Positions 13,915-30,808 of a DNA stretch of 64,000 bases are shown here, in pieces. How positions within the stretch are numbered: the stretch's first letter is position 1; each line of letters begins with the position of its first letter. The notes beneath the pieces are model-generated. The model was not told where the DNA came from. It ran no database searches and saw only the letters and a program-made list of their open reading frames with translations. The translations under genes and the position numbers were made by a program. Source of the stretch: Candidatus Saccharimonadota bacterium (GTDB taxonomy: Bacteria > Patescibacteriota > Saccharimonadia > CAILAD01 > BJGX01); NCBI GenBank assembly GCA_046350735.1, contig JAXLZU010000001.1, positions 204,530 through 268,529 on the forward strand, in the 5' to 3' direction.

Positions 13915-15105
13915 TTGGGATTGCCCCTACAAGTGCGCAGTGAATCTTTCACAAGCGTGGGGCAGCAAGATCAGCTCTCTAAAACAAACAATCCCAACCA
14001 AATAAACGCAGATGCTTCGGATCCATTGCCGAAAGCCTCTGCTGTAGTTGACCCCAAAAACCGACTCTTCTCGAGTCTTGGTAGCAACAGTAAAACCAAA
14101 AATCGCAAAAAACTGCACGTATCATCACGCTATGTATTGCACGCCGCATTTATTGTAGGTGTTGTTTTGGCTGTTGGTGCAGGTAAAGTACAATCTCAAG
14201 CTGGCTTAGTCTCGGCTAATAGTGACACACCACTCGATAAGACATCTATGATTACTACAGGTGCTGTACTAGCCCAGAGCTCGGTAAGTCTGGTTAACTC
14301 AGATCTTAATCAAGAAGCCAAAACCATCAACTCACAAACCACGATGGCAACAGCAGGAAACGAGTTCTTACAGAAGGGCCAACCAGTATTAGTAGGTAGC
14401 CAAAGCCGCGATATTACTACGTATGCTATTCAGAATGGTGATACTCTTAGCAGTATTGGCCAGAAGTTTAATATTACTACCGATACTATTAAGTGGGCTA
14501 ATAATATTACTGACGAAAACAGTATTAAGCCTGGTGATAAAATTGTCATTTTGCCGGTATCGGGTGTACTCTATACTGCTACTGGCGGAGACGATTTGGT
14601 AGCTGTAGCAGCTCGTTATCAGGCCAATGTAGCACTGATAGATAGTTTTAATAACTTAGAAGGTAAATCGCCTGTAGCTGGGCAGAAATTAGTTATACCA
14701 GACGGTGTTATTGCAGCTCCTGCCCCTGCTGTAGCAAAGACAACTGTTGCTACTACCAGCCCTACACCAACAAACGTTATTACTGGGTTTCATGGTGGCG
14801 GCGGTAGCTCGAGCAATAGCTACTCGTATGGATACTGTACTTGGTATGTTGCTACTCGTCGGTATGTTCCTCCTTTCTTGGGTAATGCCAATCAGTGGCC
14901 AAGTAATGCTCGCCGTGCAGGGATGAGTGTGGGTAACTCTCCTGTAGCGGGTGCTGCTGGTGTGTCTCGATATGGCAACCATGTTGTTTATATCGAACGT
15001 GTAGAAGGTGGAACAGTCTTTTATACCGAGATGAACGGCCCTGCTGGATGGGGACGCGTTAACTCTGGTACTGCTTCGGCCGGCAACTTCATCTACGTTT
15101 ACTAA
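13915..15105 (+). CDS. secreted peptidoglycan hydrolase with two LysM domains and a C-terminal CHAP domain
   Basis: LysM repeats (YAIQNGDTLSSIGQKF...; YTATGGDDLVAVAARY...) and CHAP core GYCTWYVA...H. Start uncertain. Confidence 0.75.
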   Translation: MGLPLQVRSESFTSVGQQDQLSKTNNPNQINADASDPLPKASAVVDPKNRLFSSLGSNSKTKNRKKLHVSSRYVLHAAFIVGVVLAVGAGKVQSQAGLVSANSDTPLDKTSMITTGAVLAQSSVSLVNSDLNQEAKTINSQTTMATAGNEFLQKGQPVLVGSQSRDITTYAIQNGDTLSSIGQKFNITTDTIKWANNITDENSIKPGDKIVILPVSGVLYTATGGDDLVAVAARYQANVALIDSFNNLEGKSPVAGQKLVIPDGVIAAPAPAVAKTTVATTSPTPTNVITGFHGGGGSSSNSYSYGYCTWYVATRRYVPPFLGNANQWPSNARRAGMSVGNSPVAGAAGVSRYGNHVVYIERVEGGTVFYTEMNGPAGWGRVNSGTASAGNFIYVY

Positions 15106-15605: not shown

Positions 15606-16868
15606 ATGTTTATAGATGTAGCTACAGTAAAAATACAGGCCGGTAACGGTGGTAATGGCTATCTTAGCTTTCATCGTACCAAAGGTAATGCCAAAGGTGG
15701 CCCAGATGGCGGTGATGGTGGTAATGGTGGTGACGTTATTTTGCGTGCCAGCCACAATACTAGTACCCTCTCTAAATATCGTACTAGCAAGCTCTGGGCA
15801 GCCCAAGATGGCGAGCAAGGTGGTAGCAATAGACGTCATGGCAAAAATGGCGAGTCGGTAGTGCTTTTGGTGCCACCGGGTACTGTTGTTTTTGATAACG
15901 AAGAACTGTTGGCAGATCTTACCAAAGATGGCCAAGAGGCTGTTATTGCCAAAGGTGGTAAGGGTGGCTTTGGTAATACTCACTTTAAAAGTTCTGTTCG
16001 TCAGGCTCCACAAATGGCCGAGTTAGGCGAACAAGGCGAGGCTAAGACACTAAAGCTAGAGTTAAAAATTGTTGCCGACGTTGGCCTTATTGGTCTGCCC
16101 AATGCTGGTAAGAGCACGCTACTTTCGGTAGTTAGCTCGGCCAAGCCAGAAATTGCCAACTATGCGTTTACAACGTTAGTGCCTAACCTAGGAGTGGTAG
16201 ATATCGATGGCAAAAGCCTCCTGCTGGCTGACATACCAGGATTAATAGAAGGTGCAAGTAAGGGTAAAGGTCTGGGGATAGAATTCTTACGCCACGTAGA
16301 GCGTTGTAGAGTGTTGTTGCAACTTATTGATGCCACTTCTACATATTGGGGTAAAGATTATCAGACTGTCAGAGACGAGTTGTCGTTATATTCTGCAGAA
16401 CTTGGCAAGAGACCATACTTGGTGGTTATTACTAAATCAGAAAGTGTTGCAAAGGCCGATTTAGAGAAAAAAGTTGCCAATTTTAGCAAACAAGCCAAGC
16501 TGAAAAAGAGTGAGATATATACCATTTCTGCAGTGGCTAATACTGGCATAGTTACGCTGCTCCGTGCCGCGCTAACTATGGTAGAGAAGAGCAACAAACA
16601 ACGCGAGCACGTACAGCCAGAAGAAGAGCTAGAAGTTATTACACTTGCACCTGGTGAGACTTGGGAAGTTAGCAAAGAAAAAGAAGGCTACAAAGTTAGT
16701 GGTACGCGTCTAGAGCGTTTTGCAGCTCGCACTAATTTTGATCAGCCCGATGGTATAAGACGATTGCGCGACATTCTAACGCGCGAGGGTGTTGGCCGCG
16801 AGCTGACTCGCCTTGGTGCCGAGCGTGGCGACACTATAATAATTGCTAAGAAAAAGCTGCAATGGTAA
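15606..16868 (+). CDS. obg: GTPase Obg
   Basis: Gly-rich Obg fold (GGNGGNG), then G1 to G4 GTPase motifs (GLPNAGKST, DIPG). Confidence 0.9.
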   Translation: MFIDVATVKIQAGNGGNGYLSFHRTKGNAKGGPDGGDGGNGGDVILRASHNTSTLSKYRTSKLWAAQDGEQGGSNRRHGKNGESVVLLVPPGTVVFDNEELLADLTKDGQEAVIAKGGKGGFGNTHFKSSVRQAPQMAELGEQGEAKTLKLELKIVADVGLIGLPNAGKSTLLSVVSSAKPEIANYAFTTLVPNLGVVDIDGKSLLLADIPGLIEGASKGKGLGIEFLRHVERCRVLLQLIDATSTYWGKDYQTVRDELSLYSAELGKRPYLVVITKSESVAKADLEKKVANFSKQAKLKKSEIYTISAVANTGIVTLLRAALTMVEKSNKQREHVQPEEELEVITLAPGETWEVSKEKEGYKVSGTRLERFAARTNFDQPDGIRRLRDILTREGVGRELTRLGAERGDTIIIAKKKLQW

Positions 16869-17416
16869 ATGTAGATGTAGCCGATATTCGTTTGCGCTGC
16901 GAAACCCAGCCAGACTTATTCTCGCCCAAAGGTCTCGATACTGGTTCTCGGCTTTTGCTAGAGACTATTATTAAGCAAAATACACCTTACCAATCTATTT
17001 TAGACTGGGGCTGCGGATGGGGAGCAATTGGTCTTGTTTTGGCTGCTCAGTTTGGTTCTGCCAAGGTAGTGGCTGTAGACTCTGATATTGCTGCTATTGC
17101 TACCACCAAAGAGAATATAGCAATTAATAAGCTAACCAATATAGAAGTAATTGCGAGCCATGGTTTTAGCGAGATAGCAGAGCAGCAGTTTGGTCTTATT
17201 GTTTCTAACCCACCCACACATCGTGGACGAGAGGTAGTAGACAATATGATACGCCAAAGTTACGAGCATTTAGATACCGATGGAGTATTGGCAATTGTTG
17301 TGGAGGCTCGCTTAAAGCCCTGGGTGGCTAGACAAATGAAGTTGGTGTTTGGCAATTACAAAATTGCGCAGCGTGGCCCCAAACATGTGGTTTTAATTGC
17401 AAAAAAATCGGAATAA
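16862..17416 (+). CDS. class I SAM-dependent methyltransferase (RsmC/RsmD-like MTS domain)
   Basis: LDWGCGWGAIG motif I and NPP(T)H motif IV, typical of rRNA m2G/m6A methyltransferases. Confidence 0.65.
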   Translation: MVNVDVADIRLRCETQPDLFSPKGLDTGSRLLLETIIKQNTPYQSILDWGCGWGAIGLVLAAQFGSAKVVAVDSDIAAIATTKENIAINKLTNIEVIASHGFSEIAEQQFGLIVSNPPTHRGREVVDNMIRQSYEHLDTDGVLAIVVEARLKPWVARQMKLVFGNYKIAQRGPKHVVLIAKKSE

Positions 17417-17710: not shown

Positions 17711-17787
<77 letters not shown>

Positions 17788-17919
17788 GCAATCATATACA
17801 AGGTACACCAAACAGGCGCTCACTATTCGTAGTCGGACGCCTTTCTATTTGTGTGTAGGGATTTGGCTGTTTGTCAAACGACCAGCTGTTTGAGACAATA
17901 CATAACATAAGCAATATCT

Positions 17920-20229
17920 ATGTCAGAAAGAACTCCATCACCAGCAGAGCCTCTGTATCGTAAATATCCAGATTTGCACAAATCTCAGTCAGTAGAGCAC
18001 GAGGTTGCTCGTCTGCGTCAGCATGGTGAGCGTATTCCCAACGAGCCGGCACCCAAGCTAGAAGCTTGGCTTCGGTTATTAGAGAGAACCCACACGGGTA
18101 AAGGTGGTAGTGAGGCCCGCCAAGCCGCGCAGCCACAAGTATACGAGCGCATAAAAACTCTCTACCATCGTCCAACTCAAGAAGGTGGCTATATTACTGG
18201 TCTTGACGATACCTCTATAGAACGGTATTTACGTCATCAAGCTCGTATTGCCCACGAGCAAGGCCACGGCGCTATTGAAGATATTATGGCCCGAGCGAAT
18301 GACCAAGTGCGAGCCGAGGCCAGAGAGACGATTCGAACCGACCAAGAACGTAGTCTCGATGCCTGGCTAGATTACCTTACCTCTGATGATGCCACGTACC
18401 CAATGTGGTTTAAATACTACACCTTCCGCAACATTACCCGTCTGGCCGAGTACGACAAACAAAAGGGTGAGTTCCCCAAGCGTTCTAAATCTACCACTGC
18501 ACCGTTCCCAGATATTAATCGCGAAGCCTTGGCGTATATGGAAGACAGCTTAGCCAAACACTATGGCCTCAAAGATATTGATCCAGATAACCCTAAGGAC
18601 GCTATCGACCCAGAAACTCAAGCGCTCTTAGACAAAGATGCCAACTTTGCCAGTCTCTACAGGCGTGCCATTGAATACGCTGCCCCCAAACACGCCGAAC
18701 AGCTCAATGTTACTGATGGTCGGTGGGTAAAGTACGACCAGACAAGTGACGAGAGTAAGAGTAAAGAGCTAGCCCACTCATTACATGGCTATGGCACAGG
18801 TTGGTGTACCGCCGGTGAGGGCATGGCGCATAGCCAACTGAGTGGTGGTGACTTTTATGTCTACTATACCAAAAGCGAAGATGGTCAGTACTCGGTACCT
18901 CGTGTAGCTATCCGCATGCAAGAAGAATATGGCCAGCAACACATTGCTGAGGTGCGGGGAATTGAAGCCGACCAGAACATGGAAGCAGCGTTGGTACCAA
19001 TTGCCGATGCCAAGCTTGCTGAGATAGACCCTGCAGGTGCTGAACGATACAAGAAACGCTCAGAGGACATGCGCCGCCTCACCGAGATAGACAACCTGCT
19101 CAAAGCTAATCCGAGTGCCGAGCTTAGCAAAGACCAGCTGAGATTTCTCTACGAACTAGATAGTAAGATTGAAGGCTTTGGTTATAACAAGGACCCACGG
19201 ATTGCCGAGATATTACAAACTCGCAACCCAAGGGTTGATTTGGCCTTTACATTAGATGTACAGCCCGAACAAATTAGTCTAACAAAAGAAGAGGCGTTGA
19301 GGGGCAATATAATCTATCACTATGGTAATCTCAACCTCAGCGGCCTGACCTCAGCCGAAGGCTTACAGCTGCCCGAGACGATCGGTGGTAATCTCGACCT
19401 CAACGGCCTGACTTCAGCCGAAGGCTTACAGCTGCCCAAGACGATCGGTGGTGATCTCGAACTCAGAAGCCTGACTTCAGCCGAAGGCTTACAGCTGCCC
19501 AAGACGATCGGTGGTTATCTCGACCTCAACGGCCTGACCACGGCCGAAGGCTTACAGCTGCCCGAGACGGTCGGTGGTGATCTCAACCTCAGCGACCTGA
19601 CCACGGTCGAAGGTTTACAGCTGCCCAAGACGGTCGGTGGTTATCTCGACCTCAGCGACCTGACCACGGCCGAAGGTTTACAGCTGCCCGAGACAATTGG
19701 CGGTGATCTCTACCTCAGAAGCCTGACCTCAGCCGATGGCTTGCACCTGCCTAAGACGATCGGTGGTGATCTCAACCTCAGAAGACTGACCTCAGCTGAT
19801 GGCTTACAGCTACCCAAGACGGTCGGTGGTGATCTCTACCTCAACGGCCTGACCACGGCCGAAGGTTTACAGCTACCCAAGACGGTCGGTGGTTATCTCA
19901 TACTCGAAGGCCTGACCACGGCCGAAGGTTTACAGCTGCCCGAGACGGTCGGTGGTGATCTCTACCTCAACTACCTGACCTCGGCCGAAGGTTTACAGCT
20001 ACCCGAGACGGTCGGTGGTGATCTCTACCTCAACGACCTGACCACGGCCGAAGGTTTACAGCTACCCAAGACGGTCGGTGGTGGTCTCATACTCGAAGGA
20101 CTAACCTCAGCCGAAGGCTTACAGCTGCCCGAGACGATCGGTGGTTATCTCGACCTCAGCAGCCTCGGTGCTGCAGATATAGCTACCCTGAGACAGCAAT
20201 ACCCTCTATTAGCAGACATGATTTATTAA
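17920..20229 (+). CDS. large hypothetical protein: 460-aa N-terminal domain plus 13 tandem 20-aa LRR-like repeats
   Basis: 769 aa with no signal peptide. The C-terminal third is LTSAEGLQLPxTIGGxLxLxx repeated 13 times. GC is about 52%, above the local background. Confidence 0.7.
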   Translation: MSERTPSPAEPLYRKYPDLHKSQSVEHEVARLRQHGERIPNEPAPKLEAWLRLLERTHTGKGGSEARQAAQPQVYERIKTLYHRPTQEGGYITGLDDTSIERYLRHQARIAHEQGHGAIEDIMARANDQVRAEARETIRTDQERSLDAWLDYLTSDDATYPMWFKYYTFRNITRLAEYDKQKGEFPKRSKSTTAPFPDINREALAYMEDSLAKHYGLKDIDPDNPKDAIDPETQALLDKDANFASLYRRAIEYAAPKHAEQLNVTDGRWVKYDQTSDESKSKELAHSLHGYGTGWCTAGEGMAHSQLSGGDFYVYYTKSEDGQYSVPRVAIRMQEEYGQQHIAEVRGIEADQNMEAALVPIADAKLAEIDPAGAERYKKRSEDMRRLTEIDNLLKANPSAELSKDQLRFLYELDSKIEGFGYNKDPRIAEILQTRNPRVDLAFTLDVQPEQISLTKEEALRGNIIYHYGNLNLSGLTSAEGLQLPETIGGNLDLNGLTSAEGLQLPKTIGGDLELRSLTSAEGLQLPKTIGGYLDLNGLTTAEGLQLPETVGGDLNLSDLTTVEGLQLPKTVGGYLDLSDLTTAEGLQLPETIGGDLYLRSLTSADGLHLPKTIGGDLNLRRLTSADGLQLPKTVGGDLYLNGLTTAEGLQLPKTVGGYLILEGLTTAEGLQLPETVGGDLYLNYLTSAEGLQLPETVGGDLYLNDLTTAEGLQLPKTVGGGLILEGLTSAEGLQLPETIGGYLDLSSLGAADIATLRQQYPLLADMIY
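19324..20163 (+). repeat. 13 near-identical in-frame 60-bp tandem repeats
   Basis: Each unit is ctgac(c/t)(t/a)c(a/g)gccgaaggcttacagctgccc(g/a)agacg(a/g)tcggtggt(g/t)atctc... and encodes 20 aa. Confidence 0.85.
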
Positions 20230-20338: not shown

Positions 20339-20620
20339 ATGTCGTTTCAGGCCTACTTAGACAATATAGAAGAAAAAACTGGCAAAACTCCAAACCAGTT
20401 TATAGAGCTGGCAAAAGCAAAGGGTTTTGGTAAAGATACCAAATCTGGCGAGATAGTAGACTGGCTAAAACAAGATTACGATTTGGGCCGAGGCCACGCT
20501 ATGGCGTTAGTATATGTAATAAAAAATGGGCCAAAAATACGTGATAAACATGTAAATAGTGGTGGTACCCATAGCGATGCTAGTAACGAGTTAAGACTAG
20601 ACGGTATAAAAAACAGATAG
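20339..20620 (+). CDS. DUF4287-like protein
   Basis: N-terminal MSFQAYLDNIEEKTGKTP matches my recollection of the DUF4287 family. Confidence 0.6.
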   Translation: MSFQAYLDNIEEKTGKTPNQFIELAKAKGFGKDTKSGEIVDWLKQDYDLGRGHAMALVYVIKNGPKIRDKHVNSGGTHSDASNELRLDGIKNR

Positions 20621-21082: not shown

Positions 21083-21245
21083 TATTACTAGGAGTATTTT
21101 ATTGTTACCAATTGGCATAGCAAACTATGCAATTAGCTCTCACTATCTAGTGTGGCTACTTGCGCAGTGCATAAATATAGAAAAATATCTATAAATATGG
21201 TAAAATACCGAAGTTCTAGTCAGCACCTTCAAAAAAGGGAGCCAG

Positions 21246-23078
21246 ATGCTCACAGAGGCCATTGCATTGGCACTAAGACACGGCACATATGTGTATGACA
21301 ATAAAGGCATTCTAGATAAAGAAAAAGCAACCTTCTGTTTTGACGATGGCGACTTTACACCCAACTACTCGCGCGAAGACTTTGCTGCATCAGAAGCTGC
21401 TTTGCTAAATAGACACATCCAGGGCTTGCAGGCAATGTCGCCGCAAGATGAACACTTAAGGGCTTTGGGGCCACAGTACGTTAGTACACGGCTAGGTAGC
21501 CAGAACCGCAAAGATGCACTACGAAATGCACGCAAACACACATTCTTGCCAGTAACACCAGAGTGGACAGATAGAGATGTCGAGTACCAGCTAACTCTGT
21601 TGGGCACTTGGCTAATGCGAGAGGCTCAGCGGAATTTGCCGTTTGGTTGCGTAGAAGCTGCCATTGGATTTTCGCAAAAGAGTCTAAAAGAGCGAGAAGA
21701 GAGACTTAAGGTAGTTTTTGAATATCTTCTGTGCAGTAATTGGTACGCAATTAACGAGTATCGAGCCAAAAAGTTTGCAGAAGAAAAGCGACATAACCCA
21801 CTAGAGGTGTTGCCTCGACAGTACGGCCAGTATCCATCGAGTCTGGTGCGGCCGAATTGCTTAGGTATTAGTGCTATGCTCTGTGGCTGGTGCGAGCTAG
21901 CTGGTGTGGAGTATATGTATGTAAATACTGTTCGCGATAGAAGCAGTACATTTGCTGAGATGTTGGTAGAAACCATTAAGTACTCACTTGCTTGGTGCCA
22001 GCAGCACGAAATTACTCTCTCCGAGGGAGATCTTTTTGCAATGCAGTCTCAGCTAGATGAGTTTACAAACCCCCATAGCGCAAGCCGTTTTCATCATTGT
22101 GTGGCAGTAAAGATGGCAGACGATTATTGGCTGATGTTAGATCCGTACCAAGAGCTATTGTTGCCCATCTCGCCTATAAATCACAGAACTGGCGACAGTA
22201 TAGAAGAAACGTATAGGCTGCTTTGTAGGATGCAAAGCAGCCTACCAGGTGTAGTTGTGCAGTATGAGTCAGAAGACTACGAAGCTATTCGAGGACCAGC
22301 CGAGAATCGTATTCAAGATAGTTTTGTGAGTGCGGTAGATGCTAAGTTATATATACAGTATTTTGGTAAAGACCCAGATACGTTATTTGGTGCAATTAAT
22401 CTTGCTCTCAAAGAAGGGTGGTTTGCGAGCTTTTGGGAAGATAATTGGCAGTCTTGTGGAATTTCGGGTAGCCACTTAGCATTTCCAGATAAAAAACGAG
22501 GTATTAACCATAGAACCTTTTATGAATGTATGTACGGTTGGGTAGGTGCATCAATACTAAACCTTGCCTCTGGCTATCGGTTTTCGAGTCTCGAAAAGTT
22601 AAAAGCCTATTATTCTGCAAACGAGGGTTTTGCTTACCGATACAGAGAATTGTTTCAGGCACTACCAATTATATTGTTTGTGCAGCAAATGCAGAAGTAT
22701 GTGTATGATGACAAATCTCAATATAACCACTTTGTAGTAGAATTTGGTAACCCGGCTTTTCAATTAGCGTGCAATACACTTAATCATTTGAGTGCATGGG
22801 ATGAAGAGTTTTCTGCTATGGTCTCACCGTTTGATATTGCAAAATTTAGTGGTAGCCAACTTATCTGGCACGATGCCTTGGCAAGGTGGTATAATACTGA
22901 CCAGTCTCACCAGGATGCTGAGTGGGAGACGTACCTTATTTCTCAACTTTGTAAATTAGAGAAGTACCAATGGCACTTCCAAACCCGGCAACTACTCACT
23001 TACCCCGACCAGGAGGAACCCAAAGATGCCGAGAATGACGAAAGAGCAGAAGGCAGCCGAGATCATGAAGCTGCGTAG
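21246..23078 (+). CDS. hypothetical 610-aa protein with a transglutaminase-like Cys-His-Asp core
   Basis: NCLGISAMLCGWCELAGVEYMYV (Cys) and HHCVAVKMADDYWLMLDPY (His, Asp), spaced as in TGase-like cysteine peptidases. The last 16 codons lie in the high-GC segment. Confidence 0.55.
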   Translation: MLTEAIALALRHGTYVYDNKGILDKEKATFCFDDGDFTPNYSREDFAASEAALLNRHIQGLQAMSPQDEHLRALGPQYVSTRLGSQNRKDALRNARKHTFLPVTPEWTDRDVEYQLTLLGTWLMREAQRNLPFGCVEAAIGFSQKSLKEREERLKVVFEYLLCSNWYAINEYRAKKFAEEKRHNPLEVLPRQYGQYPSSLVRPNCLGISAMLCGWCELAGVEYMYVNTVRDRSSTFAEMLVETIKYSLAWCQQHEITLSEGDLFAMQSQLDEFTNPHSASRFHHCVAVKMADDYWLMLDPYQELLLPISPINHRTGDSIEETYRLLCRMQSSLPGVVVQYESEDYEAIRGPAENRIQDSFVSAVDAKLYIQYFGKDPDTLFGAINLALKEGWFASFWEDNWQSCGISGSHLAFPDKKRGINHRTFYECMYGWVGASILNLASGYRFSSLEKLKAYYSANEGFAYRYRELFQALPIILFVQQMQKYVYDDKSQYNHFVVEFGNPAFQLACNTLNHLSAWDEEFSAMVSPFDIAKFSGSQLIWHDALARWYNTDQSHQDAEWETYLISQLCKLEKYQWHFQTRQLLTYPDQEEPKDAENDERAEGSRDHEAA

Positions 23079-23274
23079 GGCTGGTATGAGCGATGCTCAG
23101 ATCATCGCCGAGCACAGCAACTTGCAGGCCGGCTACGTCTGGCTGCAAGAGAACCCCGATGGCACAGCCGAGGCCGAGTCGCCGAAGCGCCCCGTTGGTT
23201 CTGGCTCGTCGCCAGCACGTCTGCAGCCACAGCCGAGCTACGGTGCCGAGTTTCGCACCCCTCAGCTCAGCTAG
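23026..23274 (+). CDS. small ORF in a high-GC (about 62%) segment, HTH-like N-terminus; possibly a gene fragment
   Basis: MPRMTKEQKAAEIMKLRRAGMSDAQIIAEH resembles a resolvase or transposase-type HTH. Followed by Pro/Ser/Gly-rich low complexity. Confidence 0.3.
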   Translation: MPRMTKEQKAAEIMKLRRAGMSDAQIIAEHSNLQAGYVWLQENPDGTAEAESPKRPVGSGSSPARLQPQPSYGAEFRTPQLS

Positions 23275-23282
23275 AACGTTTA

Positions 23283-23309
23283 CCAGTCTTTAACGAGACT
23301 GGTTTTTTT
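23283..23309 (+). terminator. rho-independent terminator ccagtct-ttaacg-agactgg-TTTTTTT
   Basis: 7-bp stem plus T7. Confidence 0.6.
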
Positions 23310-23379
23310 ATTGTAACTTTTGTTTATGAGAGAAAATTACCCTATAATTATTTTACTTTCTCTATAGAAAGAGGAGCAA

Positions 23380-23778
23380 ATGAACCTTTTAGATGTATTG
23401 CCAGAGCGGTTTTTTATCGATACTCTCACGATTGCAACATACGATGAATTCTTTGCGCTTGGGCCTCCATGTATGTATTGGTGGCAAGATCCTCAAAAAG
23501 ATCAACCGTGGCCAACGATACAGTTAGCACAAAAAACAGCTGTTAGGCTGTGGCATGGTAGAGTGCAGGTTATTCGCATGGGTGACTATTTGGTGTGGTG
23601 TAATTCAGACCCAATAGAGATAGGGGTAGTTAGGTATAGTGCACATGAGATTAATGACTTAAAAATAGTATCGGTACCAGAAATAGCTAGCTCTCTCAGT
23701 GAAGACCTGTGGGTAGCATGGATAGTAAGTAAAAAGCTAACTCATCAAGAAAGTGATGAGCTCAATAGTGACTTCTAG
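23380..23778 (+). CDS. hypothetical protein
   Basis: 132-aa ORF; hairpin terminator at 23772-23796. Confidence 0.45.
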   Translation: MNLLDVLPERFFIDTLTIATYDEFFALGPPCMYWWQDPQKDQPWPTIQLAQKTAVRLWHGRVQVIRMGDYLVWCNSDPIEIGVVRYSAHEINDLKIVSVPEIASSLSEDLWVAWIVSKKLTHQESDELNSDF

Positions 23779-26776: not shown

Positions 26777-27487
26777 ATGACGCACATGGGAGAAATAGTA
26801 ATGTCACAAAAAAGTGAGCAAGCACCAGAACCGGTAGATATTTATTTAGATGTTGATCATGTTTGGCAACTCGACCCAGAACATAATATTCCCGAAAACG
26901 AACGCCGTACAATTTGTGCAATTGCCTGCATGAAGATGATTATCGACTATGTTGTGCCAGATAAAGCCAATCTTAGCTTGCATAGTATATTTAATGAAAT
27001 GCGAGATTCTGGTGGGCAAAATAGTAATATGCACTGGAAACATGCTGACGAAGTTAATTATTTTAAGAAACTCAATCTAGTATCGTGGCGAAGAAATTGG
27101 CTGGCGCCAAATCCAGACCCAAAATGGTTTGCCGAAAACGAGGAATATAATAATCAACAGCTGGTAGCTGTATCAGAACAAATGAAAGATGAGAGTCTTG
27201 CAGGTGGTTATACTAAACAGGCTCTCCATAGTATCCGTCAATCATTAGATGCTAACTTGCCAGTAATTGTGAGCGTGGCAGCGGGTTTTAGTGAAAACAG
27301 ACAAGATCATCAGATTGTTGTTAATGGGTATGGCAGCGATGGAAAGAACGAATGGTTATATTATGTAGACCCAGTTCTTTCTCCAGAAAAACATCAAGAT
27401 AGACAGAAAGTATCACTCGAGTATTTCTTAAAATTCTTTAATAACAGAGCAATCTTTGTAAAACAACCTACGCCATCTGAAATTTGA
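26777..27487 (+). CDS. hypothetical protein with a papain-fold (C39-like) Cys...His...Asp signature
   Basis: RRTICAIACMKMIIDY (Cys) and DHQIVVNGYGSDGKNEWLYYVDP (His, Asp). No signal peptide. Confidence 0.45.
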   Translation: MTHMGEIVMSQKSEQAPEPVDIYLDVDHVWQLDPEHNIPENERRTICAIACMKMIIDYVVPDKANLSLHSIFNEMRDSGGQNSNMHWKHADEVNYFKKLNLVSWRRNWLAPNPDPKWFAENEEYNNQQLVAVSEQMKDESLAGGYTKQALHSIRQSLDANLPVIVSVAAGFSENRQDHQIVVNGYGSDGKNEWLYYVDPVLSPEKHQDRQKVSLEYFLKFFNNRAIFVKQPTPSEI

Positions 27488-27964: not shown

Positions 27965-30808
27965 ATGAAAAACTATGATCCCAAAGAGATAGAAGCCAAG
28001 TGGCAAAAAATTTGGCAACAAACAGATTTGTATAAAACTCCAGAGAATCCTAAAAAACCATTTTATAACTTGGTAATGTTTCCCTATCCAAGTGGCGATT
28101 TGCATGTGGGGCACTGGTACAACTTTGCTCCTGCAGACACGCTGGGAAGATTTGCCCGCATGCATGGCTATGATGTGTTGCAGCCTCTTGGCTATGATGC
28201 TTTTGGTTTGCCCGCCGAGAATGCAGCTATTAAGCGAGGTATACCGGCAGACGAGTGGACTGCCAAAAATGTCGCTAATTTTCACCAACAATATCTTAAT
28301 CTTGGTGGCATGTATGATCTAAGTAAAGAAATAAATACATCGAGCCCAGAATATTATCGCTGGACCCAATGGTTGTTTTTGCAATTATTTAACGCCGGCA
28401 AAGCCGTGCAGAAAGAGGCTTATGTCAATTGGGATCCAGTAGATAAAACTGTGCTTGCCAACGAGCAAGTAATAGACGGCCATGCCGATAGAAGTGGGGC
28501 CAAGGTAGAGAGAAAATTACTTAAGCAATGGTTTTTTACTATTACCGATTATGCCGATGAGCTTATTGATGATCTCGAAGGACTAGACTGGCCAGACAGA
28601 GTAAAACAACAACAGATAAATTGGATTGGTAAAAGCCATGGAGCTCTTGTGAAATTTCCATTGGTTGATGCCGATGACTACATAGAAGTTTACACTACCA
28701 GAATTGACACTATTTTTAGCGGTACATTTATTGTGCTTGCACCAGAACATCCAATGATAGCCAAACTAACAGAAGCCAAGTACAAAAAAGAAGTAGAAGA
28801 ATATATCGAACAAGCTGGCTCTAAAACCGATGTGGATCGCCAAGAAGCCAAAGAGAAGACAGGCGTATTTACTGGTAGCTATGTAACTAACCCGGCCAGT
28901 GGAGAAAAAATGCCTGTTTGGGTGGCTGATTTTGTGTTGGGCGGATATGGTACCGGCGCTGTCTTTGCTGATGCGCATGATGAGCGTGATGTAGAGTTTG
29001 CTCGCAAGTACAAGATTCCTTTAAAAGAATCTATCGAGCCGGTTACTGGTACACCTCAAGAAAATCCAGAGTTTCGACGAAGTATTGTTGCATTGGTGAT
29101 AAACCCAGAGACTAATGAAGTACTCACCATCAACTGGGGCAAAAACAATGGCGGCCATATCTTTATTGGTGGTGGTGTTGATGAAGGCGAAGACATTATT
29201 GAGTGCGCCAAACGAGAAATTGCCGAAGAAACTGGCTATAACGACATTAGCTTTATTAAACAGACAGAAAACATTCACCATCATTATTTTGCACATTCCA
29301 AAAATGTGGCACGCGAAATTTTAGCTACCGGCCTACTATTTGAATTAAACTCTGACAAGCAACAAGATCAGAAGTTAGAGCACGATGAAGAGGGTAAATT
29401 TAGTGTTGAGTGGCAACCACAAGCTAAGGTAGATCAACTGGTTACTGACGAGCTTCACCAATATGTATTCGACAGACTCATTAATAACAAAATATGGTCT
29501 GGTGATGGTATTTTGTATAACTCAGACCAATTTGATGGCATGACATCTAGTCAGGCTCGCAAAGAAATTACTGATTGGTTGGCAGAAAAAGGCTTGGCCG
29601 AACATAAGACACAGTATAAATTGCGCGATTGGCTAATAAGCCGTCAACGGTATTGGGGTGCACCTATCCCAATAATTTATTGTGAAAAGTGTGGAGTTGT
29701 GCCAGTACCAGAAGAAGACCTCCCTGTGCTATTGCCTCTTGGACAGAAATTTGATGCCTCTGGGCAATCTCCTCTCTTGCGTGATAGTTTTACCAAAACA
29801 GTATGTCCTACTTGTGGCGGCAGTGCCAAAAGAGAAACTGATACAATGGACACATTTGTAGATAGTAGCTGGTACTATTTGCGATACCCGAATACTCAAT
29901 ACACCAAAGCTGCTTTCGACCCAGACGCCGTAAAGACATGGCTACCAGTTGATAGATATATGGGCGGAATAGAACACGCTATTTTGCACTTGCTCTATGC
30001 TCGGTTTATTACTAAATTCTTGCATTCCGTAGACTTAATTGACTTTAACGAGCCATTTACCAAGCTAATTAACCAAGGTATGATCTTAGGCCCAGATGGC
30101 AATAAGATGAGCAAATCTAAGGGGAATGTTATTGACCCTATGGAATACCTCCAAAAATATGGTGCTGATGCACTGCGATTATATCTAATGTTTATGGGTC
30201 CATACGAGGATGGGGGTCCCTGGGATACCGGAAGGTTTGAGGGTACATTCCGCTTTATCAATAAGGTCTACAATTTAGTTATTGAGCCATACCGTCAGAC
30301 AGATATCGACACGATAATAGAAGCAGATGTAGAAACCCGACTGCACAAGGCTATTAAGAAAGTTGGCGAAGATTTGGGAGCTGTTAAATTTAACACGGCT
30401 ATTGCATCACTAATGGAATTTGTTAATTTCCTTACCAACATCAAGCAGGCCGGCAACATATCTGAGTCTGCTTGGCAGCAGACAGTTAATACGCTTATTA
30501 AAGTTATGGCGCCACTTACACCATATCTAGCTGAAGAGTTATGGGAACACATAGGAGAGGGAGAGAGTGTGCATTTGCAAGCTTGGCCAAAATACAGCGA
30601 AGACAAAGTTAAAGATGATGTGGTAACTATTGTGGTTCAGGTAAACGGTAAGCTCAAAAGCGAGTTCGTTGCCACCTCAGGTAGTAGCCAGGAAGAATTA
30701 GAGACAATGGCGCGCAATTTAGATAAAGAAAAGAATTTTACTAAAAATGGTGAGATAGTAAAAGTTATTGTAGTGCCAAATAGACTTGTAAATTTTGTAG
30801 TAAGATAA
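27965..30808 (+). CDS. leuS: leucine--tRNA ligase with an inserted Nudix hydrolase domain
   Basis: HVGH and KMSKS motifs, CP1 editing domain (TTRIDT, GTGAV..AHD). A perfect Nudix box GGGVDEGEDIIECAKREIAEETGY is inserted at about aa 368-505. Total length 947 aa. Confidence 0.9.
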   Translation: MKNYDPKEIEAKWQKIWQQTDLYKTPENPKKPFYNLVMFPYPSGDLHVGHWYNFAPADTLGRFARMHGYDVLQPLGYDAFGLPAENAAIKRGIPADEWTAKNVANFHQQYLNLGGMYDLSKEINTSSPEYYRWTQWLFLQLFNAGKAVQKEAYVNWDPVDKTVLANEQVIDGHADRSGAKVERKLLKQWFFTITDYADELIDDLEGLDWPDRVKQQQINWIGKSHGALVKFPLVDADDYIEVYTTRIDTIFSGTFIVLAPEHPMIAKLTEAKYKKEVEEYIEQAGSKTDVDRQEAKEKTGVFTGSYVTNPASGEKMPVWVADFVLGGYGTGAVFADAHDERDVEFARKYKIPLKESIEPVTGTPQENPEFRRSIVALVINPETNEVLTINWGKNNGGHIFIGGGVDEGEDIIECAKREIAEETGYNDISFIKQTENIHHHYFAHSKNVAREILATGLLFELNSDKQQDQKLEHDEEGKFSVEWQPQAKVDQLVTDELHQYVFDRLINNKIWSGDGILYNSDQFDGMTSSQARKEITDWLAEKGLAEHKTQYKLRDWLISRQRYWGAPIPIIYCEKCGVVPVPEEDLPVLLPLGQKFDASGQSPLLRDSFTKTVCPTCGGSAKRETDTMDTFVDSSWYYLRYPNTQYTKAAFDPDAVKTWLPVDRYMGGIEHAILHLLYARFITKFLHSVDLIDFNEPFTKLINQGMILGPDGNKMSKSKGNVIDPMEYLQKYGADALRLYLMFMGPYEDGGPWDTGRFEGTFRFINKVYNLVIEPYRQTDIDTIIEADVETRLHKAIKKVGEDLGAVKFNTAIASLMEFVNFLTNIKQAGNISESAWQQTVNTLIKVMAPLTPYLAEELWEHIGEGESVHLQAWPKYSEDKVKDDVVTIVVQVNGKLKSEFVATSGSSQEELETMARNLDKEKNFTKNGEIVKVIVVPNRLVNFVVR

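What the first reader, a model, noticed from the sequence alone, without database searches (positions are those of the whole stretch)
19324..20163. Thirteen near-identical 60-bp in-frame tandem repeats encoding an LRR-like 20-residue motif
The repeats are conserved at the nucleotide level, which suggests recent expansion or concerted evolution. They provide a substrate for repeat-number variation by slipped-strand or recombinational events. The encoded motif L-T-S-A-E-G-L-Q-L-P-x-T-I-G-G-x-L-x-L-x-x resembles a leucine-rich-repeat variant (LxxLxLPxxIGGxLxL). The 460-aa N-terminal domain has no recognisable motif and no signal peptide. The protein could be a secreted or injected host-interaction protein, or a sensor with a repeat-based recognition module.
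Basis: seen in the sequence. Interest (0 to 1): 0.55.

Follow-up and report, generated by a model that had tools for sequence, protein, structure and literature searches.

The report
Variable leucine-rich repeat recognition protein
This gene from a tiny symbiotic (Saccharibacteria/CPR) bacterium joins a widely conserved domain of unknown function to a fast-changing array of 13 leucine-rich repeats. In related proteins the same position is occupied by a domain that a retroelement deliberately hypermutates, so the array is probably a variable binding surface for a fast-changing target.

Summary
The tandem array is real, in frame and at the stated place. Its unit is 63 bp / 21 aa, not 60 bp / 20 aa. 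It has 13 full units (19324-20142) plus a partial 14th. The units are about 85% identical, not near-identical.

The array is the C-terminal module of a 769-aa protein (17920-20229) with no signal peptide, no transmembrane segment and no Pfam, NCBIfam, PHROG or PADLOC match.

The repeats fit the nested 21-residue IRREKO class of LRRs. AlphaFold2 models them confidently as a solenoid, and Foldseek matches FNIP-type LRR proteins.

Four positions per unit (GxLxLxx) are hypervariable, with pN/pS of 2.8 against 0.32 for the framework. An allele whose first 1546 bp are 99.87% identical carries 11 reshuffled units instead of 13.

The roughly 445-aa N-terminal domain defines an uncharacterised family found in at least 549 Patescibacteria species. 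It is fused to interchangeable C-terminal modules. In six homologous loci the C-terminus is a verified target of a diversity-generating retroelement (DGR), with adenine-specific TR/VR mismatches and an adjacent reverse transcriptase. None of 27 LRR-type loci has such a reverse transcriptase nearby.

Best reading: a hypervariable ligand-recognition module on a conserved, possibly PcfJ-like, domain. The ligand, the cellular location and the biochemistry remain unknown.

The parts
17920..20229 (+). Complete ORF of 769 aa including the stop codon. It is a two-module protein that is acidic and has a single Cys.
   Evidence: ORF listing. Homologues share the same start region. No transmembrane segment or signal peptide; 117 D+E against 76 K+R.
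17920..19254 (+). Conserved N-terminal domain (aa 1-445): a helical region plus an alpha/beta core. Its function is unknown and it may be PcfJ-like.
   Evidence: More than 1,421 homologues. At least 549 loci in GTDB species genomes. AlphaFold2 pLDDT 88. 42% identity over aa 9-459 to a DGR-target homologue. No significant PDB fold match.
18718..18960 (+). Alpha/beta core of the N-domain (aa 267-347). It holds the invariant residues G267, W269, T293, W295, C296 (codon 18805-18807), G310, D311, F312, P327, R328, E344 and G347.
   Evidence: Invariant columns in a 69-sequence alignment. Secondary structure of the model. Weak, non-significant GNAT/MYST-like Foldseek matches.
19255..19323 (+). Junction and N-terminal cap of the solenoid (aa 446-468, ...ISLTKEEALRGNIIYHY). 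C-terminal modules are swapped between family members at this point.
   Evidence: Family consensus ISxTxEEALxGxIxxHYG. The same cap is kept in short repeat proteins that lack the N-domain. Alternative modules begin here.
19324..20142 (+). 13 tandem 63-bp / 21-aa LRR-like units, G-x-L-x-L-x-x-L-T-(S/T)-A-E-G-L-Q-L-P-(E/K)-T-(I/V)-G. Positions 2, 4, 6 and 7 are hypervariable.
   Evidence: Tandem Repeats Finder. Unit table. pN/pS of 2.83 at positions 2, 4, 6, 7 against 0.32 for the framework. Model pLDDT of about 89-97 with two short strands per unit.
20143..20166 (+). Partial 14th unit (GYLDLSSL) that closes the array.
   Evidence: It is orthologous to the last partial unit of L001, with 2 mismatches.
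20167..20226 (+). C-terminal helical cap (GAADIATLRQQYPLLADMIY). It is conserved across LRR-type family members (...L(R/Q)xxYPxLxxxI).
   Evidence: Helices 751-760 and 762-767 in the model. Conserved tails in homologues.

Best explanation
The gene encodes a member of a Patescibacteria-wide family of two-module proteins. A conserved N-terminal domain of about 445 aa, of unknown activity, carries a C-terminal module whose job is to bind a fast-changing ligand.

Here that module is a capped solenoid of 13 IRREKO-like 21-residue leucine-rich repeats. The Leu, Pro and Gly framework builds the core. The four x positions around the LxL strand (GxLxLxx) form a hypervariable surface.

New specificities arise in two ways: gain, loss and shuffling of 63-bp units by recombination within the array, which always stays in frame, and selection for amino-acid change at those four positions. 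Framework positions are homogenised within each array.

In sister proteins the same N-domain carries a C-terminal domain that a diversity-generating retroelement hypermutates. The LRR array is therefore a recombination-based alternative to retroelement-based diversification of one recognition protein.

Shown here: the anatomy, the family, the variability pattern, the allele difference and the DGR targeting of homologues. Inferred: ligand binding by the variable face, and the recombinational mechanism. Unknown: the ligand, whether the protein acts inside or outside the cell, and what the N-domain does.
For: - Array anatomy.
- Confident AlphaFold2 model (pLDDT 89.8) with two short strands per unit plus caps.
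- Foldseek matches to FNIP-type LRR proteins (E 5.7e-4, prob 1.0).
- Weak match of the family profile to internalin A (E 0.02).
- The unit fits the IRREKO consensus LxxLxLxxNxLxxLDLxx(N/L/Q)xx as AEGLQLPxTI|GGxL(D)LxxLTS (PMC2946307).
- pN/pS at positions 2, 4, 6, 7 is 2.83 in the window and 4.14 in L001, against 0.32-0.33 for the framework.
- This ratio exceeds 1 in 11 of 21 arrays, notably those with low pS.
- Across 172 arrays and 1,652 units, the same four positions have the highest within-array entropy. Positions 15, 18 and 19 are uniform within arrays but differ between them.
- Against L001, the upstream region plus N-domain is 99.87% identical (2 differences in 1546 bp), yet L001 has 11 units against 13 and only the terminal units are clearly orthologous.
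- Copy number ranges from 4 to 22 with a strict 21-aa period.
- The N-domain is fused to at least five alternative C-terminal modules.
- In six homologous loci the last ~130 bp of the gene has a downstream template copy (TR) whose base is A at 18/18, 25/25, 23/23, 18/19, 15/16 and 19/22 mismatches, next to a reverse transcriptase with LGNLTSQ and YADD motifs.
- The N-domains of these homologues are 40-45% identical to this protein over about aa 10-459.
- A reverse transcriptase lies within 4 kb of 10 of 41 non-LRR loci and 0 of 27 LRR loci.
- Literature: CPR DGR targets include proteins with a PcfJ-like motif upstream of the variable region (PMC5758913). They typically lack transmembrane or known domains (PMC8144416).
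Against: - No ligand, localisation or expression data exist.
- pN/pS is about 1 or below in 10 of 21 arrays, where synonymous sites are saturated. Relaxed constraint rather than positive selection cannot be excluded family-wide.
- The 11-versus-13 comparison rests on one metagenome-assembled contig. Repeat arrays are prone to assembly error.
- Foldseek found no solved LRR structure at E<=0.001, and Pfam LRR models do not hit this protein.
- The strict LxxLxLxxN signature is absent.
- The protein has no export signal, which is awkward for a surface receptor. It has no NTPase or recognisable effector and no defence-island context, which is awkward for an immune sensor.
Confidence: 0.66

Rival explanations
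1. Exported host-interaction protein. The protein leaves the cell by a non-classical route, or is displayed on it. The LRR face binds surface structures of the host bacterium on which the episymbiont lives, and variation tracks host surface diversity.
For: - The same 21-aa repeat module occurs behind N-terminal membrane anchors (P0226, P0220, P0214, P0233). It also occurs in a 3,550-aa protein with PG_binding_1 and Big_5 domains.
- Giant forms place a signal peptide and a hydrophobic hairpin before the N-domain plus repeats (P0198).
- DGR targets are generally ligand-binding proteins involved in cell-cell or virus-cell contact (PMC8144416).
- Patescibacteria lead a host-attached lifestyle (established knowledge).
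Against: - The 769 aa contain no signal peptide or transmembrane segment.
- CPR DGR targets are reported to typically lack transmembrane or other recognisable domains.
- No secretion-system genes are conserved next to the gene. Its neighbours are housekeeping genes such as Obg, a methyltransferase, RecA, DnaG and FtsK.
Confidence: 0.3
2. Intracellular sensor-effector in a genetic conflict, against phage or foreign DNA. The variable LRR face recognises an invader component in the cytoplasm, and the conserved N-domain is the effector or signalling part.
For: - The protein has no export signal and a cytosolic-type acidic composition.
- The N-domain resembles a phage protein annotated PcfJ-like (Foldseek E 9.2e-4, prob 0.93).
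- PcfJ of pCF10 lies next to an AcrIIA9-family gene on a conjugative plasmid.
- DGR-diversified putative intracellular antigen sensors are described in other bacteria (PMC10907252, abstract).
- The gene's composition is foreign: GC 52% against 42%, in differing genomic contexts, and near-identical between lineages whose flanks are about 80% identical.
Against: - There is no PADLOC hit, no NTPase switch and no recognisable nuclease, protease or TIR effector.
- The gene is not in a defence island.
- The family is very widespread and usually stands alone among housekeeping genes.
- The PcfJ link failed sequence tests.
Confidence: 0.3
3. The repeats are a structural spacer or neutral expansion. 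Slippage-prone DNA was expanded recently, and the variable positions merely reflect lack of constraint on a surface with no recognition role.
For: - Copy number is very plastic, from 4 to 22 units.
- pN/pS at the variable positions is about 1 when averaged over 21 arrays.
- The C-terminal module can be replaced by unrelated domains.
Against: - Variability is confined to the same four positions in 172 arrays.
- pN/pS is well above 1 in young arrays, including this one.
- Caps and framework are conserved across deep divergence.
- The replacing module in sister proteins is an actively hypermutated DGR variable region, which points to function in variability itself.
Confidence: 0.07
4. The array is itself diversified by a DGR acting in trans, or is a relic of one. 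The hypervariable codons derive from AAY template codons by adenine mutagenesis.
For: - 40 of the 52 codons at positions 2, 4, 6 and 7 are reachable from AAY by changing only A positions (counted from the codon table).
- The commonest residues at these positions family-wide are D, N, S, Y and G, the AAY-accessible set.
- Close relatives of the protein are DGR targets.
Against: - The 64-kb window contains no reverse transcriptase ORF and no copy of the unit outside the array.
- None of 27 LRR-type loci has a reverse transcriptase within 4 kb.
- 12 of the 52 codons need non-A changes.
- D, N, S, G and Y are also typical of exposed LRR positions in general.
Confidence: 0.05

Closest known systems
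DGR target proteins of Candidate Phyla Radiation bacteria (Wu et al. 2018 category 'g', 'PcfJ-like' motif upstream of the variable region; Roux et al. 2021, DGR clade 2 targets)
   Same: The N-terminal domain is homologous, at 40-45% identity over about 450 aa, to proteins whose 3' ends I verified as DGR variable regions. Both lack transmembrane segments and known domains. Both have a C-terminal variable module.
   Different: This protein has no variable-region domain, no template repeat and no reverse transcriptase nearby. Its C-terminus is an LRR array that varies through unit turnover.
IRREKO@LRR proteins (21-residue nested LRRs such as E. coli YddK and Listeria internalin-J homologues; Matsushima et al. 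2010)
   Same: The unit is 21 residues with alternating 10- and 11-residue sub-units, each carrying LxL. The consensus is met at 7 of 8 positions, with T at the 'N' position and frequent D in 'LDL'. Two short strands per unit are predicted. Some IRREKO proteins are likewise intracellular, with no signal peptide.
   Different: Position L11 is Gly, with Ile one residue earlier. The strongly conserved LTSAEGLxLPxxIGG framework was not described in that paper. No Pfam LRR model hits this protein. It is fused to a large non-LRR domain.
FNIP / FGxxFN LRR proteins of giant viruses and Dictyostelium (Huyton et al. 2022)
   Same: These are the best structural matches to the solenoid (Foldseek on BFVD: E 5.7e-4 and 9.6e-4, prob 0.99-1.0). 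Both are non-canonical LRRs of about 21-22 residues with an LPxx segment.
   Different: There is no FGxxFN motif or phenylalanine spine. The unit is 21 residues rather than about 22-23. The host lineage and partner domains are different.
PcfJ domain proteins (Pfam PF14284; pCF10 PcfJ; phage polyvalent proteins)
   Same: Foldseek matches a phage 'PcfJ-like protein' (E 9.2e-4). The order of motifs is the same: (H/W)C(V/T)xG ... hydrophobic strand ... P..(T/A)(L/I) ... (V/I)x(Q/E)(I/V)(Q/R)Gxx(N). The family HMM aligns PcfJ proteins in the same register.
   Different: Neither Pfam PF14284 nor hhalign detects similarity, and the hmmsearch scores are at most 5 bits. The function of PcfJ is itself unknown.
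Lamprey variable lymphocyte receptors and other LRR proteins diversified by cassette shuffling (functional analogy only; established knowledge)
   Same: Recognition diversity comes from shuffling LRR units, with hypervariable residues flanking the LxL strand.
   Different: There is no evidence of programmed somatic assembly here. Variation is seen between strains, not within an organism.

Membership tests
Leucine-rich repeat superfamily | Tandem units of 20-30 residues | tested here: met
   13.4 units of 21 aa with no indels. The 21-aa period is strict in homologues.
Leucine-rich repeat superfamily | Conserved segment LxxLxLxxNxL, read strictly with Leu-type and Asn | tested here: not met
   The unit has no L at i, i+3, i+5 followed by N. 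It fits only under the permissive residue sets of Matsushima 2010 (A for L, T for N), and even then position 11 is Gly.
Leucine-rich repeat superfamily | Solenoid of stacked parallel beta-strands, similar to known LRR structures | tested here: inconclusive
Leucine-rich repeat superfamily | Match to a curated LRR profile | tested here: not met
   No Pfam LRR family matched this protein. LRR_14 matched only 8 of 69 relatives, best E 1e-4. A family profile against PDB matched internalin A at E 0.02.
IRREKO@LRR class | 21-residue unit with nested alternating 10- and 11-residue sub-units, each with LxL | tested here: met
   L14xL16 and L3xL5 are spaced 10 and 11 residues apart in every unit. The class definition is from PMC2946307.
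IRREKO@LRR class | Consensus LxxLxLxxNxLxxLDLxx(N/L/Q/x)xx | tested here: inconclusive
   AEGLQLPxTI|GGxLxLxxLTS satisfies L1(A), L4, L6, N9(T), L14, L16 and position 19(L). D15 is the commonest residue family-wide. L11 is Gly.
FNIP / FGxxFN repeat | FGxxFN(Q) motif in each unit | tested here: not met
   The motif is absent from all units. There is no Pfam FNIP hit. The resemblance is at the fold level only.
PcfJ domain (PF14284) | Significant match to the Pfam model or to bona fide PcfJ proteins | tested here: not met
   PF14284 did not hit the window protein. It is not among the 25 families listed (of 53) for the 69 relatives scanned at E<=1. hhalign against pCF10 PcfJ and its relatives gave probability below 1%. 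hmmsearch gave at most 5 bits.
PcfJ domain (PF14284) | Shared fold | tested here: inconclusive
   There is one Foldseek hit to a phage protein annotated PcfJ-like (E 9.2e-4, prob 0.93, TM 0.07-0.12). The literature reports a PcfJ-like motif in CPR DGR targets, but I could not confirm that these belong to this family.
DGR target gene | Variable region with a nearby template repeat differing at adenines | tested here: not met
   No copy of the repeat unit, or of the gene's 3' end, exists elsewhere in the 64-kb window. The feature is met in six homologous loci.
DGR target gene | DGR-type reverse transcriptase in the neighbourhood | tested here: not met
   No ORF of more than 150 aa with a YxDD motif exists in the window. 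None of 27 LRR-type loci has one within 4 kb, against 10 of 41 non-LRR loci.
On/off phase-variable contingency gene | Repeat unit not a multiple of 3, so copy change shifts the reading frame | tested here: not met
   The unit is 63 bp, so copy-number changes keep the frame. The 11-unit allele is full length.

The most novel reading that the evidence does not exclude
A single, CPR-wide recognition protein family uses two unrelated diversification engines interchangeably on the same conserved N-terminal domain. One is retroelement (DGR) hypermutation of a C-terminal domain. The other is recombinational shuffling of an LRR cassette array. This would be a bacterial parallel to the antibody versus lamprey-VLR dichotomy. 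It would imply that the family is a central, fast-evolving recognition system of these ultra-small symbionts, directed at their host or at invaders.
Probability: 0.4. Interest if true: 0.8.

Novelty: new variant of a known kind. Interest (0 to 1): 0.62.

Why it matters
- Patescibacteria are a very large and little-studied branch of bacteria. Most are thought to live attached to other microbes, and how they recognise partners or enemies is largely unknown.
- Their DGR targets have been a puzzle because they show no known domains or membrane anchors.
- This locus ties an LRR-type variable array to the same protein family. That gives an independent argument that the family's C-terminus is a recognition surface under diversifying pressure.
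- The family offers tractable constructs, with defined repeats and four variable positions per unit, for binding screens.
- It also defines a conserved 445-aa domain with an invariant Cys, Asp, Arg and Glu whose activity is worth finding.

Tried and rejected
- **Profile libraries.** Pfam, NCBIfam, PHROGs and PADLOC gave only spurious repeat-driven hits on the protein: Glutaredoxin2_C, threonine synthase, SpoV and HNH_5. No Cys/His HNH pattern is present.
- **Solved structures by sequence.** PDB searches found nothing for the N-domain. IncA at E 0.66 and ParB at E 1.2 were rejected.
- **Solved structures by fold.** Foldseek against PDB, with both the full model and the N-domain model, gave no hit at E<=0.001. 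Recurrent GNAT/MYST acetyltransferase hits had prob <=0.63 and TM <=0.38. I treat them as a topology hint only.
- **PcfJ homology.** hhalign and HMM tests were negative or insignificant. The word-indexed search seeded with pCF10 PcfJ returned only 18 close relatives, too shallow for a good profile.
- **Phages and plasmids.** tblastn of the N-domain found nothing. Only the repeats matched one phage.
- **Conserved operon partners.** None was found apart from the DGR cassette in non-LRR members. RecA, FtsK and DnaG adjacency is sporadic.
- **Genomic island at tRNA-Ala.** I considered that the gene belongs to an island integrated at tRNA-Ala. The tRNA boundary instead marks a rearrangement upstream in the L001 lineage, not the edge of this gene's mobility.
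- **Literature.** Searches for LRR proteins in Patescibacteria or Saccharibacteria returned nothing relevant.
Full report
**1. The observation**

Tandem Repeats Finder reports one array at 19323-20165. It has period 63, 13.4 copies, 85% matches, no indels and score 1035.

The array lies inside a 769-aa ORF at 17920-20229 on the + strand. Slicing the ORF gives 13 complete in-frame 21-aa units from 19324 to 20142. A partial 14th unit (GYLDLSSL) runs to 20166, followed by a 20-aa tail.

The place, the frame and the count are therefore right. The unit, however, is 63 bp / 21 aa, not 60 bp / 20 aa.

The units are not near-identical. They differ pairwise by 1-17 of 63 bases, with a mean of 9.8.

**2. 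Organism and setting**

The neighbours are ordinary housekeeping genes:
- Obg (15606-16868)
- a small methyltransferase (16862-17416)
- tRNA-Ala (17711-17787)
- a DUF4287 protein (20339-20620)
- a Mur ligase
- LeuRS

The closest homologues come from Candidatus Saccharibacteria / Saccharimonadia metagenome-assembled genomes.

The gene has 52.2% GC and a GC3 of 52.9%. The window as a whole is 41.8% GC, and neighbouring genes have GC3 of 34-41%. Other Saccharimonadia loci show the same offset of about +10%. Family-wide, gene GC tracks flank GC (r = 0.78, mean +3.4%).

**3. The repeats**

The unit is G-x-L-x-L-x-x-L-T-(S/T)-A-E-G-L-Q-L-P-(E/K)-T-(I/V)-G.

It does not contain the strict LxxLxLxxN signature, and no Pfam LRR model hits this protein.

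It does fit the 21-residue nested 'IRREKO' LRR class (PMC2946307). That class has the consensus LxxLxLxxNxLxxLDLxx(N/L/Q/x)xx, with alternating 10- and 11-residue sub-units and strands predicted on both faces. Read as AEGLQLPxTI | GGxL(D)LxxLTS, the unit satisfies 7 of 8 consensus positions. Thr sits at the 'N' position, and Gly sits at L11 with Ile one residue earlier.

AlphaFold2 with a 69-sequence alignment gives mean pLDDT 89.8. The repeats score about 89-97, show a regular two-short-strand pattern per unit, and have helical caps at both ends.

Structural and profile comparisons gave:
- no solved structure at E<=0.001 by Foldseek
- FNIP-type LRR proteins of giant viruses in the viral model library (E 5.7e-4 and 9.6e-4, prob 0.99-1.0)
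- internalin A at E 0.02 from a family profile
- LRR_14 in 8 of 69 relatives

I conclude that this is a non-canonical, IRREKO-like LRR solenoid.

**4. How the array varies**

Within the array, positions 2, 4, 6 and 7 (the x's of GxLxLxx) carry 4-5 different residues each. Most of the remaining positions are invariant, and the others alternate between only two residues.

| Array | pN, variable positions | pS, variable positions | Ratio | Framework ratio |
|---|---|---|---|---|
| Window | 0.435 | 0.154 | 2.83 | 0.32 |
| L001 | 0.395 | 0.095 | 4.14 | 0.33 |

Over 21 arrays with DNA available, the ratio exceeds 1 in 11. These include the arrays with low pS (L075, L001, L026, the window, L032 and L087, ratios 2.2-11.9). 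It is about 1 or below where synonymous sites are saturated.

Across 172 arrays and 1,652 units, the same four positions have the highest within-array entropy (1.7-2.1 bits). Positions 15, 18 and 19 are fairly uniform within an array but differ between arrays (1.4 bits against 2.2-3.0 bits). That is the signature of concerted evolution of the framework.

**5. A natural experiment**

Contig JAKOQC010000517 (L001) carries an allele whose upstream region plus N-domain differs from the window at only 2 of 1546 bases, or 99.87% identity.

Its array, however, has 11 units instead of 13. Only the first unit and the last partial unit are clearly orthologous (3 and 2 mismatches). The interior units are mosaics with different variable residues and a different mix of SAEGLQ and SADGLH framework variants.

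Downstream, identity is about 94% and then about 80%.

The array is thus by far the fastest-changing part of a locus that otherwise looks recently shared. There is a caveat: L001 is a short-read MAG contig, so assembly error in the array cannot be excluded.

Across the family, copy number ranges from 4 to 22 with a strict 21-aa period. Because 63 is a multiple of 3, copy changes never break the frame. This is size and specificity variation, not an on/off switch.

**6. The N-terminal domain**

Residues 1 to about 445 have no Pfam, NCBIfam, PHROG or PADLOC match. They have no transmembrane segment or signal peptide.

The domain is nonetheless strongly conserved:
- more than 1,421 homologues were found, all labelled 'hypothetical'
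- at least 549 loci occur in GTDB species representatives
- these span Saccharimonadia, Paceibacteria/Parcubacteria, and the Magasanik-, Kuenen-, Falkow-, Kerfeld-, Andersen-, Moran-, Levy-, Roizman-, Shapiro- and Berkelbacteria

Thirty-six columns are invariant. They include W295-C296 (GTGWCTAGE, the only Cys in this protein), D311, R328, E344 and Q352.

The model (pLDDT 88) shows a helical region plus a beta-alpha-alpha-beta-beta-beta core. No PDB fold match is significant. The recurrent GNAT/MYST hits are weak.

A phage protein annotated 'PcfJ-like' matches at E 9.2e-4. The motif order resembles the C-terminus of pCF10 PcfJ. However, Pfam PF14284, hhalign and hmmsearch do not support homology. 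I leave 'PcfJ-like' as a lead, not a classification.

**7. The decisive context: interchangeable C-terminal modules and DGRs**

The N-domain is fused to at least five different C-termini:
- the 21-aa LRR array
- a different 21-aa repeat (P0105)
- helical repeats of about 38 aa
- two globular domains

Clustering the neighbours of about 80 loci showed that the commonest neighbour, present in 15 loci just downstream, is a reverse transcriptase. A motif scan found the DGR-type motifs LGNLTSQ and YADD in 10 such ORFs.

In six loci (L023, L057, L059, L060, L077, L082) the last ~130 bp of the homologous gene has a second copy 350-500 bp downstream. The downstream copy has A at 18/18, 25/25, 23/23, 18/19, 15/16 and 19/22 of the mismatches. 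This is the hallmark of a diversity-generating retroelement.

Those proteins share 40-45% identity with the window protein over about aa 10-459.

| C-terminal type | Loci | With RT within 4 kb |
|---|---|---|
| LRR (21-aa repeats) | 27 | 0 |
| Type B globular | 24 | 7 |
| Other | 17 | 3 |
| Type A globular | 8 | 0 |
| Helical repeats | 2 | 0 |
| Truncated | 5 | 0 |

The window has no reverse transcriptase and no template-like copy of the unit.

The literature agrees. CPR DGR targets include proteins with a PcfJ-like motif upstream of the variable region (PMC5758913). They typically lack transmembrane or other recognisable domains, and it is still open whether they are genuinely not membrane-bound (PMC8144416).

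**8. Interpretation**

The C-terminal slot of this family is a place where sequence diversity is generated. A retroelement does this in some members. In this one, it happens by turnover and positive selection of LRR units.

The most economical reading is that the slot holds a ligand-binding surface aimed at a rapidly changing target, and that the conserved N-domain supplies a constant function. Ligand binding and the recombinational mechanism are inferences.

I cannot decide between two settings. In one, the protein is exported and acts on the host. The repeat module also occurs behind membrane anchors and in a giant protein with PG_binding and Big_5 domains, and giant forms carry a signal peptide. 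In the other, the protein is an intracellular sensor. It has no export signal, it has hints of kinship with proteins of mobile elements, and its gene has a foreign composition and appears mobile.

A neutral-spacer reading is unlikely. A trans-acting DGR on the repeats is not excluded but has no positive evidence beyond a codon flavour: 40 of 52 variable codons are reachable from AAY (counted from the codon table).

**9. Distribution of the repeat itself**

A full scan of 1.84 billion cluster representatives with the repeat region alone found 2,033 proteins at E<=0.001. Of the 148 best hits examined, 110 carry the N-domain.

The rest include short helical-N-terminus proteins, membrane-anchored proteins and a giant surface-type protein.

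A related 20-aa repeat (LPTSIGGSLxLSGCDLTGIT) sits unannotated at the left end of EBPR podovirus 1.

**10. Novelty and score**

LRR arrays with variable copy number, and DGR target families, are both known kinds. New here are three things:
- the recognition of a CPR-wide two-module family
- the assignment of its repeats to an IRREKO-like class
- the observation that an LRR array and a DGR variable region are alternative occupants of the same slot

I did not find this described in the literature I could search.

I rate it a new variant of a known kind, with interest 0.62.

Noticed in passing
window 17711-17919; L001 1150-1341: tRNA-Ala(GGC) lies 132 bp upstream of the gene. In the near-identical allele L001, identity starts exactly at the tRNA 3' end (AGCTCCACCA). 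Only a degenerate tRNA 3' remnant is left there, preceded by unrelated 54.7% GC DNA with a HAD-like ORF. This points to an integration or rearrangement at the tRNA 3' end in one lineage.
   Followed up: partly
window 21105-23764 (ORF 21246-23078, 610 aa): This segment is present in the window but absent from L001. Its 610-aa ORF has no Pfam, PHROG or PADLOC match.
   Followed up: partly
window 27965-30808: The leucyl-tRNA synthetase (947 aa) carries a NUDIX domain (aa 371-489, E 2e-13) just after the editing domain. The L001 counterpart is 806 aa with no NUDIX listed, so this may be a strain-specific domain insertion in an essential enzyme.
   Followed up: no
window 17920-20229 versus flanks; L009, L011, L012, L014, L041: The gene is about 10 GC points richer than its surroundings (52% against 42%; GC3 of 53% against 34-41%). 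The same offset is seen in other Saccharimonadia loci. One MAG holds two copies in unrelated contexts, and another genome has two tandem paralogues 8 kb apart. The 5' part is 99.87% identical between lineages whose flanks are about 80% identical. Together these suggest horizontal exchange of the gene.
   Followed up: partly
L006 (EBPR podovirus 1, JF412294.1) 1-735: An unannotated partial ORF at the left end of this phage record consists of 20-aa LPTSIGGSLxLSGCDLTGIT repeats. They are 40.6% identical to the window's array (E 2e-25).
   Followed up: partly
L001 2834-2907 (- strand): ARAGORN calls a tRNA-Gly(ACC) inside the repeat array of L001. This is almost certainly a false positive caused by the repeats.
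   Followed up: no
P0198, P0163; L075 (1,594-aa ORF): Giant relatives place about 800 extra residues before the N-domain plus repeats. P0198 has a signal peptide, and both P0198 and P0163 have a Gly-rich hydrophobic hairpin. L075 is labelled Deltaproteobacteria, so the family may reach outside Patescibacteria in an exported or membrane-inserted form.
   Followed up: partly
window 19324-20142, codons 2, 4, 6 and 7 of each unit: The variable codons are mostly NAY or RRY (GAT, TAT, AAT, GGT, AAC, GAC, TAC, AGC, GGC). 40 of 52 are reachable from AAY by changing only adenines, a DGR-like flavour, yet there is no reverse transcriptase or template repeat in the window. This is unexplained.
   Followed up: partly
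L058 +1 and two other loci (cluster, 112 aa): A small four-helix-type protein (MEELPVITVAFEIYKKLLELN...) recurs immediately downstream of non-LRR family members. It may be the DGR accessory protein (Avd). This was not verified.
   Followed up: no
window 13915-15105 and 26777-27487: A LysM + CHAP cell-wall hydrolase and a peptidase C39-like protein flank the region. Both are ordinary envelope and secretion-related genes, noted only as context.
   Followed up: no
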